DNA from: a virus
Lineage: Duplodnaviria; Heunggongvirae; Uroviricota; Caudoviricetes
Reading direction: 5' to 3' (one strand)
IMG/VR virus record: IMGVR_UViG_2671180439_000004
Length of the DNA stretch: 13,460 nt
Made by a program: the position numbers. Shown here piece after piece: positions 1 through 3,000 of the stretch (position 1 is its first letter; each line of letters begins with the position of its first letter).

Positions 1-3000
1 CCAGCTGGCGTTTGAGACGTGCAATCTCGGTAGACATCTCCAGTTCACGTTCAGAAGACGTCTGCTGATTTTGCTGTTTACTGCGCCAGTTGTAGAGTTG
101 TGATTCATACAGGCTGAGTTCACGGGCTGCGGCAGTAACACCGATGCGTTCAGCAAGCTTCAGGGCTTCACTGCGAAATTCAGGCGAATGCTGTTTACGG
201 GGTTTTTTACTGGTTGATACTGTTTTTGTCATGTGAGTCACCTCTGACTGAGAGTTTACTCACTTAGCCGCGTGTCCACTATTGCTGGGTAAGATCAAAC
301 ATGTTAAAAATGTTAGAGAACACTGCACAACGGAAGAGACAACCAAGCAGGCTTTGATACTTCCTTTTTTGGACATCCTAGGCTTTAACGCATATGATCC
401 GCAAAAAGTCAAAGCTGAATATGGTGCGGACTTCCCTGGTGTGAAAGTGGGTGAGCGTGTAGATTATGCTCTATTCTGCCAAGGTGTTCCCGTTATGTTT
501 ATTGAGGCCAAAGGTTGTAAAGAAAAAATGGACAACCATTGTCCTCAATTATCTAGGTATTTTAATTCTACTCCTGAGGTGACAATATCAGCAATTACTA
601 ATGGAATTGAATGGCGCTTTTTTACGGATCTCAATGAAAAAAATATAATGGATTCAACGCCATTTTTACGAATCATGATGGATGACATTAAAGATTCTGA
701 TGCTGAGCAATTATTTAGATTCCGCCATGACAAATTCAAACCAGAGGCCCTAAGAACCCTTGCAGAAGAGAGTGTTTATATTTCTGCATTTGTTAAAGTC
801 GTGAGTACAAGCCTTCGGGAAGTAGATCATGAATTTGTTAGATATGTTGCAGGACGAGCAAATATTGGTCGTCAATTAAATCAAAGATTTATAGAAACAA
901 TAACTCCATTGGTGAGGCAGGCCGTAGAGAGGTCAGTAAGTGAAATGGTTGTTTCTGGTCTTTCATCAAGAACATCTATTCCTGAATTAGAATCCCCTGC
1001 TGATGTAACTGAAAATAATGTAATTGATGAGCGCGCAGATATTGTCGATGCAGAGAACCCCAACATAGTAACAACCTATAATGAAAGAATTTTATTTGAA
1101 AAAATCTGTTCTATTATAGGCCCTGCATACGAACTTCAAGCCAAAGATACAGAGTCCTATTACTCTATTCTTTTCCAAGGAAAAACAAACCGCTGGCTGG
1201 TTCGCTATTATGACAAGAAGAATCGCTCAAACATACAGTTACCAATTGATATCAATGAAATAACCGGTAATGAAATTAAAAGAGCCGGACTTGAACATGA
1301 TAACAATCGTATTTTCATTGAACATCCCGAGGATGTATTAAGGATTTCAGGTTTAATCCTTGATTCTTTACAATATGTACAGAATGATGAGAATTTCAGA
1401 AAGCGTCGTCCATAATCATAAAAACACTAGCTTTATTTCACACAAATCCCGCTTATGCGGGATTTTTTTTGACCGCCGACCAACATTAGGCTAAGCCTAT
1501 TGACATGACATTAGGCATAACCTAACATCAAGTGAGTCTGATGGACTATGTCATCTTGGCGGCACCAGTTTCCCCATTGTTTCTGGTTCGCCCTTTTACA
1601 AAAGACATCAGAGCACCACCGAGTGACGTGCCCTAACACAATCCGCCCGAGCGGATTTGCGGCCGCAGGTGCTCTTCTGTGTTGTGTGGAGAACTAACGT
1701 ACCGCCATTGCAGTGGCGGTCCCCCATCAGCAAGAAATTTTAACCAGCTATTCACCCATTCTCATGGGTTGGGTTGCTGCACCCTAAATTTACGCGTTGC
1801 AGAGCGTCAGATGGAGAACAAAAGATGGCTAAGACAGCAAAACAACTGATTAAACAGGCGTACGAAATAGCCAAAACTATGCCACCAGAACAGGCAGCAA
1901 TCATCAAGGAACTGGCTACCGTCCTCGATGTTTCGAATGTAGCTCTGCGCCAGACGCGCACCGAACGTGACGCCCTTCTTGCAGAGGTCAAATCATGGGC
2001 GAAAGAGTGTGATCGCCTGACCGAGCGACACACCAAGAATCGCACAAATATGCATGTTCTAGAGGCTATGCGCGATTTGAAGGCAATTTGCCCCACCAGC
2101 TTCCGTAACGTGGAGGCTCTCTGATGGCTAAAGACTCAAAGCTGGTATATGGCGCGAGTGGCAAAACGAACGTTTTAGCGTTTGAACCTGAAAAACTGCA
2201 CCTGGTTACCGACAAAACGCACCCGCTTTACGATGAGCGTATCCACCTGCCTATCAGCGAGGCAATGGTGCTGAACATCATGGACCAGGGCGTTCTTGAG
2301 CCGATTATCGTCTGGAAAGACCCGGAAACAGGGCTGTCTTGTGTGGTTGATGGTCGCCAGCGTGTGCGCCATACACTGGAAGCCAATAAGCGTCTGTCAA
2401 AATTGGGCAAAGAACCGTTACTGGTTCCGGGAGTCCCTAAACGTGGCTCTGCCATTCGCATGGCGCAGGCGATGGTAAGTGCTAACGAAATCCGCCAGGC
2501 AGATACGCCGCTAGGCCGAGCAAAGAAAATGGCTGATGCGCTGGAGCGCGGGCACGATGAGGATGATTTAGCGCTGATGTTTGGCGTGAGTGTCCAGACC
2601 GTACGCGCAACTCTGTCACTGCTGGATGCCACCCAAGCTGTTCGCGATGCAGTGGAGTCCGGAACGGTCACTGTTACCCAGGCGCGTCAGTTGGCATCGC
2701 TTAAACCCGAAGAGCAACGGGAGAAGGTCAAGCAGATCGAGACAGCGACCGCCGGCACCACGGGCCATGAAAAAGCTCGGCGTCAGCGTCAGATCCTCGG
2801 TGATGCAAAGCCGCGCCTGAAAACCCGCAAAGAAATTACAAAAGCACTCGAAGATGCCAGTGGCGAATATGCCGAGGCTCTGCGCTGGGTGCTTGGGGAG
2901 GCGCAATGAATTTTGAACCTGAGAATTACAGCAAATACACCCTGCGTCGGCTCGCCGCCCTGTTAGATGTGATCTGCTGGGTGCTGATTGCCGTAGTAAC

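What the first reader, a model, noticed from the sequence alone, without database searches (positions are those of the whole stretch)
282..1415. AT-rich orphan HsdR_N-like PD-(D/E)xK nuclease gene, 5'-truncated by IS3: candidate stand-alone defence/abortive-infection gene
The 377-aa ORF has an N-terminal domain with the motif order of the type I restriction R-subunit N-terminal nuclease fold (EETTKQALILPFLDILGF, VDYALF, MFIEAKG, NGIEWRFF), but no ATPase/helicase, methylase or specificity gene is nearby. Its C-terminal ~190 residues match nothing I recognise. Its base composition is conspicuously more AT-rich than the adjacent ParB-like gene and the core genes, so it looks like separately acquired cargo. 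It has its own terminator and sits on an integrase-associated island at a tRNA hotspot, where anti-phage cargo is commonly found. IS3 has inserted within or just upstream of its first codons, which may have silenced it.
Basis: partly seen in the sequence, partly recalled or inferred. Interest (0 to 1): 0.62.

Follow-up and report, generated by a model that had tools for sequence, protein, structure and literature searches.

The report
IS3-broken prophage immunity-region nuclease gene
This is a copy, broken by an insertion sequence, of a widespread temperate-phage gene for a stand-alone DNA-cutting enzyme that sits next to the phage repressor, where phages usually keep genes that protect the host from other phages; nobody appears to have tested its function.

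Summary
ORF 282-1415 exists, carries a true HsdR-type PD-(D/E)xK nuclease domain (Pfam HSDR_N, 2e-14) and is AT-rich (37% vs 48% GC). IS3 cuts it.

IS3 ends at base 297. The "TTG" start lies inside the IS3 inverted repeat. The native 384-aa gene has lost its ribosome-binding site, ATG and first 12 codons, so this copy is almost certainly dead.

The "island" is a decayed Rac-like lambdoid prophage at tRNA-Ser. The gene lies inside its immunity region: repressor racR, then the gene, a terminator, and operator/promoter-like sites. This is the slot lambda uses for rexAB.

The same order (repressor, then this gene, same strand, often 9-22 nt apart) recurs in Citrobacter, Morganella, Yersinia, Salmonella Mu-like, Fusobacterium, Streptococcus and Corynebacterium phages.

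The family is large (PHROG 4225). D68, E82, K84 and Q96xxxY100 are invariant. A helical connector, an acidic linker and a YdhG/frataxin-like C-terminal domain follow. No motor, methylase or specificity partner is present.

Best reading: a lysogen-expressed, methylase-free anti-phage nuclease. It is untested and absent from PADLOC. All E. coli copies are disturbed by insertion sequences. Moderate interest.

The parts
1..297 (-). Left end of IS3: terminal inverted repeat at 297..~258, and orfA/InsE start codon at 232 reading leftwards off the contig
   Evidence: 100% identity over 297 nt to the annotated IS3 in L001 6643-6939. The translation gives MTKTVSTSKKPRKQHSPEFRSEALKLAERIG.... The window is a whole 13,460-nt draft contig that breaks inside IS3.
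282..1415 (+). Chimeric 377-aa ORF (RefSeq WP_053287113.1). Its first 5 codons, and the first base of the sixth, are IS3 sequence. No Shine-Dalgarno sequence precedes the TTG.
   Evidence: Alignment to the intact protein shows MENFKVRLKNHIE replaced by MLGKIK.
298..1415 (+). Native remainder of the nuclease gene: from the 2nd base of codon 13 to the stop. It is 100% identical to E. coli S1-INA-02-B and Klebsiella allele WP_004184742.1.
300..680 (+). HsdR-type PD-(D/E)xK nuclease domain (native residues 14-140). Catalytic codons: D68 at 462-464, E82 at 504-506, K84 at 510-512, Q96 at 546-548, Y100 at 558-560.
693..971 (+). Helical connector (native residues 145-237)
   Evidence: AlphaFold2 model, pLDDT about 90-97. 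It aligns together with the nuclease domain to DrdV over 192 residues.
972..1046 (+). Variable, acidic, disordered linker (native residues 238-262)
   Evidence: pLDDT below 50. Unalignable across relatives. Median pI 4.1.
1047..1400 (+). C-terminal alpha/beta domain with a YdhG/frataxin/YjbR-like fold (native residues 263-380). Conserved residues: T271, T272, E275, D296, Y300, R315.
1444..1472 (+). Intrinsic terminator of the repressor-nuclease transcript
   Evidence: 9-bp stem, 4-nt loop, T run.
1485..1528 (+). Two operator-like palindromes (1485-1501, 1510-1526) overlapping a promoter-like site (TTGACA-17-TAACAT, 1500-1528). Inferred to be the OL/PL equivalent that drives the 99-aa ORF, the ParB-like gene and int.
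   Evidence: The same palindrome ATTAGGCTAAGCCTAAT lies between the cro-like gene and racR in L002 7249-7265. Chance expectation is 0.01 per window.
1825..4159 (+). Rest of the prophage left arm: 99-aa phage ORF (1825-2124), ParB-like gene (2124-2909), tyrosine integrase (3182-4159)
   Evidence: All hit PHROG families. Pfam and NCBIfam. RefSeq annotation of identical DNA.
4272..4361 (-). tRNA-Ser (CGA), the attachment site of the prophage. mtfA, tRNA-Asn and yeeJ follow as host genes.

Best explanation
The window holds an IS3-inactivated copy of a conserved temperate-phage immunity-region gene (PHROG 4225).

**The intact protein (384 aa).** It is a solitary Mg-dependent DNA endonuclease built from four parts:
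- an HsdR/BpuSI-type PD-(D/E)xK domain with D68, E82-x-K84 and Q96xxxY100;
- a helical connector;
- a flexible acidic linker;
- a YdhG/frataxin-like C-terminal domain.

**Expression (inferred).** The gene lies directly downstream of the prophage repressor on the same strand, before a terminator and the early-left operators. It is therefore most likely made in the lysogen from the repressor's transcript, as rexAB is in lambda and bstA in BTP1.

**Function (inferred).** It protects the lysogen by cutting the DNA of superinfecting phages. The C-terminal domain decides what is cut or when: either it recognises a target, or it senses a phage cue that relieves autoinhibition. No methylase partner is involved.

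**This copy.** IS3 inserted after nt 37 of the CDS. That removed the ribosome-binding site, the ATG, 12 codons of a conserved N-terminal helix and the link to racR transcription. This copy is non-functional.

**Shown versus inferred.**
- Shown: domain identity, catalytic residues, fold, gene position, IS3 junction, family spread.
- Inferred: co-transcription with the repressor, nuclease activity, anti-phage role, role of the C-terminal domain.
For: **Domain and motifs**
- Pfam HSDR_N and HSDR_N_2 match in all 122 members scanned.
- E25, K29, E53, D68, E82, K84, Q96, Y100 and G115 are invariant across sequences only 26-36% identical to the query.

**Fold**
- The AlphaFold2 model has pLDDT 92.

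**Position in this prophage**
- racR, then the gene, then a terminator, then operator palindromes shared with the racR/cro-like intergenic region.
- No terminator or sigma-70-like promoter was found between racR and the gene.

**The same position elsewhere**
- 22 nt after a CI/S24 repressor in 6 of 6 Citrobacter places.
- 9 nt after it in 5 of 5 Morganella places.
- After the repressor in 5 of 5 Salmonella Mu-like prophages.
- In Klebsiella phage KpF5, S. pneumoniae phage IPP25, Corynebacterium phage Juicebox and Fusobacterium phage FNU_1P.
- 22 of 80 species loci have a recognisable repressor as the upstream same-strand ORF.

**Persistence**
- The repressor+nuclease pair persists alone in Yersinia pseudotuberculosis.

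**Known hotspot**
- The cI-N interval is a known hotspot that holds rexAB and bstA (PMC8585504).

**Accessory-gene composition**
- The gene is more AT-rich than its flanks in 72 of 80 loci.

**IS3 junction**
-.
Against: - No experiment exists, and no phage-resistance phenotype is known for any member. I found none in ten literature searches.
- PADLOC has no match.
- How a constitutively made nuclease spares host and prophage DNA is unexplained.
- The C-terminal domain has no known modified-base-reader fold and is acidic (pI about 5.6), which fits DNA binding poorly.
- In about three quarters of the 80 species loci the upstream ORF is not a recognisable repressor, and many flanks are housekeeping genes. 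The repressor linkage is therefore common but not universal.
- Lysogen expression is inferred from layout only.
Confidence: 0.6

Rival explanations
1. Addiction or toxin module. The nuclease is a toxin kept in check by, or co-regulated with, the adjacent CI/RacR-type repressor. The pair stabilises the prophage, or triggers cell death on SOS or repressor loss, rather than restricting incoming DNA directly.
For: - The repressor+nuclease pair survives as a two-gene cassette with no phage genes nearby in Yersinia.
- The repressors linked to the gene are homologous to each other, so the pair moves as one unit.
- In E. coli every copy of the gene is disturbed by an insertion sequence: five separate events in 1.3 kb. 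One copy also carries D68G in the catalytic motif. This is what a costly gene would show.
Against: - The intact allele is on at least 1000 contigs, mostly Klebsiella, so it is tolerated.
- AT-rich DNA is a preferred insertion target for IS1-type elements (my own knowledge), and the whole remnant is decaying; ISEc52 sits elsewhere in L002.
- Many family members lack an adjacent repressor.
- A toxin role and an abortive-infection defence role are not mutually exclusive.
Confidence: 0.15
2. Conventional restriction enzyme protected by an unlinked methylase: the prophage's own Dam-like methylase or a host methylase. In effect it would be a split type II R-M system.
For: - A D12-class adenine methylase lies about 3 kb away in the Rac-like prophage.
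- One lies convergent and 63 nt from the gene in Salmonella Mu-like prophages.
- C5 methylase genes sit in 2 of 6 Citrobacter prophages.
Against: - 0 of 80 species loci have a Dam-like methylase within 6 kb.
- None appears in the Morganella or Yersinia places, nor in the Streptococcus, Corynebacterium and Fusobacterium phage stretches examined.
- Orphan methylases are common in lambdoid and Mu-like phages regardless (established knowledge).
Confidence: 0.1
3. A nuclease for the phage's own life cycle (recombination, replication restart, host DNA breakdown or packaging), with no role in the lysogen.
For: - PHROG 4225 is filed under 'DNA, RNA and nucleotide metabolism'.
- In Porphyromonas phages the gene is not next to a repressor.
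Against: - It lies on the repressor strand inside the immunity region, cut off from the early operons by a terminator and operators.
- It sits in lysogeny modules next to the integrase in Gram-positive phages.
- It is retained with only the repressor in Yersinia.
- The prophages that carry it have separate recombination nucleases such as RecE, RecT and YqaJ.
Confidence: 0.1
4. N-terminal fragment or pseudogene of a type I HsdR subunit, as the database name 'type I restriction endonuclease' implies.
For: Only the domain name and the Pfam hit, plus a weak local NCBIfam hit to PRK11448 at 14 bits against a cut-off of 729.
Against: - Thousands of full-length relatives of 350-400 aa have their own start and stop, and the C-terminal domain is conserved.
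- A full-length PHROG match covers residues 1-376 against profile positions 1-357 of 357.
- No helicase domain appears in any of the 122 members scanned.
- No hsdM or hsdS appears in any gene table examined.
Confidence: 0.01

Closest known systems
Nuclease domain of type I restriction R subunits (EcoR124I HsdR; Vibrio HsdR fragment 3h1t)
   Same: - Same Pfam families.
- Same catalytic D...ExK plus the QxxxY motif. That this motif marks RecB and HsdR nucleases is my own knowledge.
   Different: - No SF2 translocase, helical or C-terminal HsdM-contact domains.
- No hsdM or hsdS partners.
- About 384 aa rather than about 1000.
- Carries its own C-terminal YdhG-like domain.
N-terminal nuclease plus helical connector of type IIG/IIL enzymes BpuSI and DrdV
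   Different: Those enzymes continue into methyltransferase and target-recognition domains. Here the connector leads to an acidic linker and a small alpha/beta domain, with no methylase.
Lambda RexAB and Salmonella BTP1 BstA (immunity-region, lysogen-expressed defences)
   Same: - Same genomic slot: downstream of the repressor, same strand, before the early-left promoter and N (PMC8585504).
- A single accessory unit with its own terminator.
   Different: - No sequence or fold relation.
- RexAB is a two-protein membrane-depolarising system and BstA is a KilA-N protein.
- This one is a predicted nuclease.
Solitary methylase-free (type IV, modification-dependent) restriction enzymes such as Mrr, McrA, SauUSI and GmrSD
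   Same: A nuclease with no cognate methylase, common on mobile elements. As I recall, COG4748, to which this family probably belongs, is labelled 'predicted type IV restriction endonuclease'. It is listed among restriction COGs in PMC8649781 and with HSDR_N in PMC3424549.
   Different: - No recognisable modified-base reader (SRA, EVE/PUA, YTH or winged helix).
- No NTPase.
- Dependence on DNA modification is untested.
YdhG-like/DUF1801, DR2400/DUF419, YjbR, frataxin/CyaY and T4 MotA C-terminal domain (for the C-terminal domain)
   Different: - No sequence similarity.
- The function of the closest match is unknown.
- The domain here is acidic, whereas the MotA C-terminal domain binds DNA.
DefenseFinder 'FS_HsdR_like' (PICI-borne HsdR-like defence, Fillol-Salom et al. 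2022; recalled from memory)
   Same: By name, an HsdR-like single protein on a phage-related mobile element that gives phage resistance.
   Different: Could not be compared. The paper and model are not available here. Whether it is this family is open.

Membership tests
Pfam HSDR_N (PF04313) / HSDR_N_2 (PF13588) nuclease domain | Score above the curated gathering threshold | tested here: met
   54.3 bits against 25.1, and 25.1 against 25. 122 of 122 family members hit both.
Pfam HSDR_N (PF04313) / HSDR_N_2 (PF13588) nuclease domain | PD-(D/E)xK catalytic triad and QxxxY motif present and conserved | tested here: met
   D68, E82, K84, Q96 and Y100 are invariant in 122 sequences. All are intact in the window copy.
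Type I restriction enzyme R subunit (HsdR) | SF2 helicase/translocase motor domains | tested here: not met
   The protein is 384 aa. No ResIII, DEAD or Helicase_C hit appears in it or in 122 relatives. The NCBIfam HsdR model scores 14 bits against a cut-off of 729.
Type I restriction enzyme R subunit (HsdR) | Adjacent hsdM and hsdS genes | tested here: not met
   None in the window, and none in the gene tables of about 30 places.
Type IIG/IIL restriction-modification fusion (BpuSI, DrdV) | N-terminal HsdR-type nuclease plus helical connector | tested here: met
   [not shown]
Type IIG/IIL restriction-modification fusion (BpuSI, DrdV) | Fused gamma-class methyltransferase and target-recognition domains | tested here: not met
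   No methylase Pfam hit. The chain ends at residue 384 after a 118-residue YdhG-like domain.
Immunity-region (cI-N / rexAB slot) prophage accessory defence genes | Located between the repressor gene and the early-left operator/promoter, on the repressor strand | tested here: met
   racR, gene, terminator, then operator palindromes shared with the racR/cro-like intergenic region. The same order holds in Citrobacter, Morganella, Salmonella, Klebsiella, Fusobacterium and Corynebacterium phages.
Immunity-region (cI-N / rexAB slot) prophage accessory defence genes | Transcribed in the lysogen with the repressor | not testable with these tools
   Only indirect evidence: gaps of 9-22 nt to the repressor stop codon, and no terminator or promoter-like site in the 170-nt racR-gene spacer.
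Immunity-region (cI-N / rexAB slot) prophage accessory defence genes | Confers resistance to superinfecting phages | not testable with these tools
   Needs plaque assays. No report was found.
Type IV (modification-dependent) restriction enzymes | No cognate methyltransferase | tested here: met
   0 of 80 loci have a Dam-like methylase within 6 kb. None is consistently present in the gene tables.
Type IV (modification-dependent) restriction enzymes | A recognised modified-base reader domain or NTPase partner | tested here: not met
   The best fold matches of the C-terminal domain are YdhG-like, DUF419, YjbR and frataxin, not SRA, EVE, YTH or a winged helix. No Pfam hit.
Type IV (modification-dependent) restriction enzymes | Cleaves modified but not unmodified DNA | not testable with these tools
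   Needs a biochemical assay.
Known anti-phage systems in PADLOC-DB v2.0.0 | Match to any of the 5027 models | tested here: not met
   No family at E <= 0.1.
PHROG 4225 (phage 'endonuclease' family) | Full-length profile match | tested here: met
   E 3.1e-151; residues 1-376 against profile positions 1-357 of 357.
IS3 | Terminal inverted repeat and orfA identical to an annotated IS3 | tested here: met
   297 of 297 nt identical to the IS3 in NZ_CP145662.1. The terminal repeat is TGATCTTACC, and orfA translates as InsE.

The most novel reading that the evidence does not exclude
The repressor and the nuclease form a self-contained two-gene immunity cassette of a kind not yet described. It would be a methylase-free restriction or abortive-infection nuclease whose acidic linker and YdhG/frataxin-like domain act as a trigger sensor or autoinhibitor. 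Its expression or licensing would be tied to the state of the CI/S24 repressor, and so to SOS. The cassette would outlive the prophage (as in Yersinia) because it protects or addicts the host. It would be costly enough in E. coli to be knocked out repeatedly by insertion sequences.
Probability: 0.2. Interest if true: 0.7.

Novelty: new member of a known kind. Interest (0 to 1): 0.45.

Why it matters
If the intact protein restricts phages, it would add a very widespread single-gene system to the defence catalogue. It is a PHROG family found in temperate phages of Proteobacteria, Firmicutes, Actinobacteria and Fusobacteria, with at least 1000 contigs for the Klebsiella allele alone.

It would also correct a pervasive mis-annotation ('type I restriction endonuclease'). 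And it would give the rexAB/bstA slot a third, mechanistically distinct occupant.

Because it lacks a methylase and any known reader domain, finding its self/non-self rule could reveal a new way of aiming a restriction-type nuclease.

For Klebsiella phage therapy, a common lysogen-expressed nuclease would be a practical host-range determinant.

The copy in this window is a dead allele and has no functional consequence for its host.

Tried and rejected
- **Fragment of HsdR.** Rejected: the relatives are full length, the PHROG match is full length, and no helicase domain is found.
- **Linked methylase.** I searched 80 species loci with three Dam-like methylases from carrier prophages and found none.
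- **Sequence searches against solved structures.** The full protein, the family profile and the C-terminal-domain profile gave only chance-level hits.
- **C-terminal domain in other architectures.** A profile search of the 5.8-billion-protein set returned only fragments of the same family. Longer family members showed no informative fusions.
- **First structure model.** The 31-sequence alignment gave pLDDT 70 and only weak Foldseek hits. It was replaced by a 122-sequence model with pLDDT 92.
- **The search for related loci with the 122-sequence alignment.** This failed for lack of a conserved stretch. It was rerun with the close alignment.
- **Literature.** Ten searches found no functional study of this family. 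The Fillol-Salom 2022 paper, source of 'FS_HsdR_like', is not held, so that comparison stays open.
- **C-terminal domain as a plain DNA-binding domain (by analogy to the MotA C-terminal domain and YjbR).** Weakened by its net negative charge.
- **Insertion-sequence clustering as proof of toxicity.** Not accepted as proof, because AT-rich DNA attracts insertions and the seven ISKpn26 genomes may be clonal.
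Full report
**1. Observation**

The ORF at 282..1415 on the + strand (377 aa, TTG start) is real.
- It hits Pfam HSDR_N (PF04313, E 2e-14, 54.3 bits against a cut-off of 25.1) and HSDR_N_2 (PF13588, 25.1 against 25).
- It is 37.2% GC (GC3 28%). The neighbouring ParB-like block is 54% and the window 48%.
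- A stem-loop with a T run follows at 1444-1465.
- The window holds no helicase, methylase or specificity gene.
- A tyrosine integrase (3182-4159) abuts tRNA-Ser(CGA) at 4272-4361.

**2. The IS3 junction**

- Window 1-297 is 100% identical, in reverse orientation, to the first 297 nt of an annotated IS3. It ends in the terminal repeat TGATCTTACC, and the minus strand translates as InsE.
- Identical DNA in E. coli S1-INA-02-B continues upstream of window base 298. There it gives a 384-aa protein (WP_004184742.1) that starts MENFKVRLKNHIEHVKNV, preceded by GGAGG.
- IS3 therefore inserted after nt 37 of the CDS. The first five codons of the listed ORF and the first base of the sixth (282-297) are IS3 sequence.
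- The ribosome-binding site, the ATG, 12 codons of a conserved and confidently modelled N-terminal helix, and the link to upstream transcription are all lost.
- No Shine-Dalgarno sequence precedes the TTG (direct reading).
- RefSeq nevertheless names the chimeric product (WP_053287113.1). Its longest contig is 13,460 nt, so the window is a whole draft contig that breaks inside IS3.

**3. The protein**

- Relatives are full length (about 350-400 aa) and numerous:
  - 1337 hits in the word-indexed search, at 60-99% identity across Enterobacterales;
  - 3529 cluster representatives at E <= 1e-3, and 360 at E <= 1e-30;
  - a full-length match to PHROG 4225 'endonuclease' (E 3e-151).

  It is therefore not a fragment of HsdR.
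- Among 122 sequences, most only 26-36% identical to the query, E25, K29, E53, D68, E82, K84, Q96, Y100 and G115 are invariant. These are the D...ExK triad plus the QxxxY motif. From my own knowledge, that motif characterises RecB-family and HsdR nucleases.
- An AlphaFold2 model built on this alignment has pLDDT 92. It shows:
  - a nuclease domain (residues 1-140);
  - a helical connector (145-237);
  - a disordered, acidic, unalignable linker (238-262);
  - a compact alpha/beta domain (263-380).
- The C-terminal domain has no Pfam family and no sequence match in the PDB.
- It is acidic (median pI 5.6) and carries a conserved polar cluster: T271, T272, E275, D296, Y300, R315.

**4. Where the gene sits**

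The 'island' is a decayed Rac-like lambdoid prophage.
- In complete E. coli genomes with identical DNA the gene order is: RusA fragment, Dam-like methylase, ymfL, ydaS-like gene, racR, this gene, a 99-aa ORF, a ParB-like gene, int, tRNA-Ser.
- All three neighbours inside the window hit phage families.
- The palindrome ATTAGGCTAAGCCTAAT occurs between the cro-like gene and racR (L002 7249-7265). It occurs again at window 1485-1501 and 1510-1526, overlapping a promoter-like TTGACA-17-TAACAT. Chance expectation is 0.01 per window.
- The gene is therefore bracketed by the two operator regions of the immunity region and ends at its own terminator. Established lambda genetics places rexA-rexB in exactly this position. 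The BstA paper describes this slot as a hotspot that holds rexAB and bstA (PMC8585504).
- No terminator or promoter-like site lies in the 170-nt racR-gene spacer.

**5. The same arrangement elsewhere**

| Host or phage | Arrangement |
|---|---|
| Citrobacter lambdoid prophages | 22 nt after a CI-type HTH+S24 repressor, 6 of 6 places |
| Morganella prophages | 9 nt after the repressor, 5 of 5 places |
| Salmonella Mu-like prophages | follows the repressor, 5 of 5 places |
| Klebsiella phage KpF5 | racR, then the gene |
| S. pneumoniae phage IPP25 | repressor, one ORF, the gene, int |
| Corynebacterium phage Juicebox | repressor, then the gene |
| Fusobacterium phage FNU_1P | CI, the gene, int |
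| Clostridium phage CWou-2020a | HTH regulators upstream |
| Porphyromonas phages | exception: next to HicAB |

- Among 80 species loci from GTDB genomes, 19 of 67 upstream same-strand ORFs carry HTH_3 and 17 carry Peptidase_S24.
- 22 of the 74 upstream ORFs match one of five repressor seeds. The CI-type repressors are mutually homologous (E 1e-60 to 1e-150), so repressor and nuclease move as one immunity cassette.
- In Yersinia pseudotuberculosis the pair stands alone among housekeeping genes.
- Many other loci have housekeeping neighbours, so the linkage is frequent but not universal.
- The gene is more AT-rich than its flanks in 72 of 80 loci, with a median difference of -6.2 points.
- No Dam-like methylase lies within 6 kb in any of the 80 loci.

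**6. E. coli copies**

Only 3 of 5426 complete E. coli genomes retain the gene. Together with the window and seven genomes carrying the same remnant, every copy is disturbed:

| Genome | Event |
|---|---|
| S1-INA-02-B | IS3 inserted 66 nt upstream of the ATG, with target duplication GCC |
| This window | IS3 after nt 37 of the CDS |
| AB66 | IS1 at codons 88-91, plus a D68G change |
| PCN061 | IS1 at codons 368-370 |
| Seven genomes | ISKpn26 with deletion from nt 61 to 11 nt past the stop |

- By contrast, the intact allele is on at least 1000 contigs, mostly Klebsiella.
- This pattern is compatible with a fitness cost in E. coli. It could equally reflect the preference of insertion sequences for AT-rich DNA in a decaying element, and the seven ISKpn26 genomes may be clonal.

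**7. Mechanism**

- Shown: a solitary HsdR-type nuclease with an intact, invariant active site; a tethered small domain; and a position in the lysogeny/immunity module.
- Inferred: it is made in the lysogen on the repressor transcript and cuts the DNA of superinfecting phages.
- How self DNA is spared is not known. There is no methylase partner and no known modified-base reader.
- The acidic linker and C-terminal domain fit a sensor or autoinhibitor at least as well as a DNA-recognition module.
- I put about 0.85 on nuclease activity, about 0.6 on an anti-phage role, and roughly even odds between direct restriction and trigger-activated (abortive) action.
- Rivals:
  - a repressor-linked toxin or addiction module (0.15);
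  - a restriction enzyme protected by an unlinked methylase (0.1);
  - a lytic-cycle nuclease (0.1);
  - an HsdR fragment (refuted).

**8. Comparison with known systems**

- It works like the nuclease head of type I and type IIG/IIL enzymes but fails their membership tests, since it has no motor, no methylase and no specificity subunit.
- By position it belongs with rexAB and bstA, but it is unrelated to them in sequence and fold.
- It resembles type IV enzymes only in lacking a methylase.
- PADLOC (2023) has no model for it.
- I could not compare it with DefenseFinder's FS_HsdR_like.
- Ten literature searches found no functional study.

**9. Verdict**

- This locus is a dead allele.
- The family is an uncharacterised but database-known phage endonuclease, and a good untested candidate for a prophage-encoded defence.
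- Novelty: new member of a known kind. Interest: 0.45.

Noticed in passing
window 1485-1528; L002 7249-7265 and 9964-9980: Operator-like palindrome ATTAGGCTAAGCCTAAT occurs on both sides of the racR-nuclease unit. The downstream copies overlap a promoter-like TTGACA-17-TAACAT. These are probably the RacR-type OR and OL/PL operators of this prophage.
   Followed up: partly
L001 7898 (IS3), L002 8235-9001 (IS1), L108 ~4074-4841 (IS1), L023 5810-7000 (ISKpn26), window 297/298 (IS3): Five separate insertion-sequence events hit the same 1.3-kb gene in the E. coli copies of this prophage remnant. No undisturbed racR-gene unit exists in 5426 complete E. coli genomes, whereas the Klebsiella allele is intact on at least 1000 contigs.
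   Followed up: partly
L002 ~8165 (E. coli AB66): The IS1-interrupted copy also carries GAT->GGT, which changes the catalytic D68 (motif VDYALF) to G.
   Followed up: partly
L105-L107 6214-8158 (Yersinia pseudotuberculosis): A CI-type HTH+S24 repressor and the nuclease gene persist as a two-gene cassette between an OmpA-family gene and an ABC-F gene, with no other phage genes within 7 kb.
   Followed up: partly
window 5667-8165 and 8214-12818: The inverse autotransporter adhesin gene yeeJ is split into two ORFs. RefSeq marks the identical region in relatives as a pseudogene with an internal stop.
   Followed up: no
L024 6380-8241 (E. coli L37), also H16 and H17: Related prophages at the same tRNA-Ser site carry the ParB-like gene followed directly by a DGQHR-domain (DndB-like) gene. 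The window has the ParB-like gene alone. A ParB-like/DGQHR pair may be another accessory module.
   Followed up: no
window 278-307, minus strand: A promoter-like site spans the IS3/gene junction. Its -35-like TTAACA lies in gene DNA and its -10-like AATAGT in the IS3 terminal repeat, and it reads into the IS3 transposase gene.
   Followed up: no
window 1598-1617 / 1668-1687 and 1701-1720: Two further inverted repeats lie in the 358-nt spacer between the nuclease gene and the next ORF: 20-nt arms, 80% complementary, 50 nt apart; and an adjacent 10+10-nt palindrome. Their function is unknown.
   Followed up: no
L015-L019 8230-9000 (Salmonella Mu-like prophages); L001 4343-5137: A D12-class (Dam-like) adenine methylase lies convergent and 63 nt from the nuclease gene in Mu-like prophages, and about 3 kb away in the Rac-like prophage. 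None was found in 80 other species loci.
   Followed up: yes
whole window: The window equals a complete 13,460-nt draft-assembly contig that ends inside IS3. The other side of the IS3 insertion, including its target duplication and whether racR is still adjacent, cannot be seen.
   Followed up: partly
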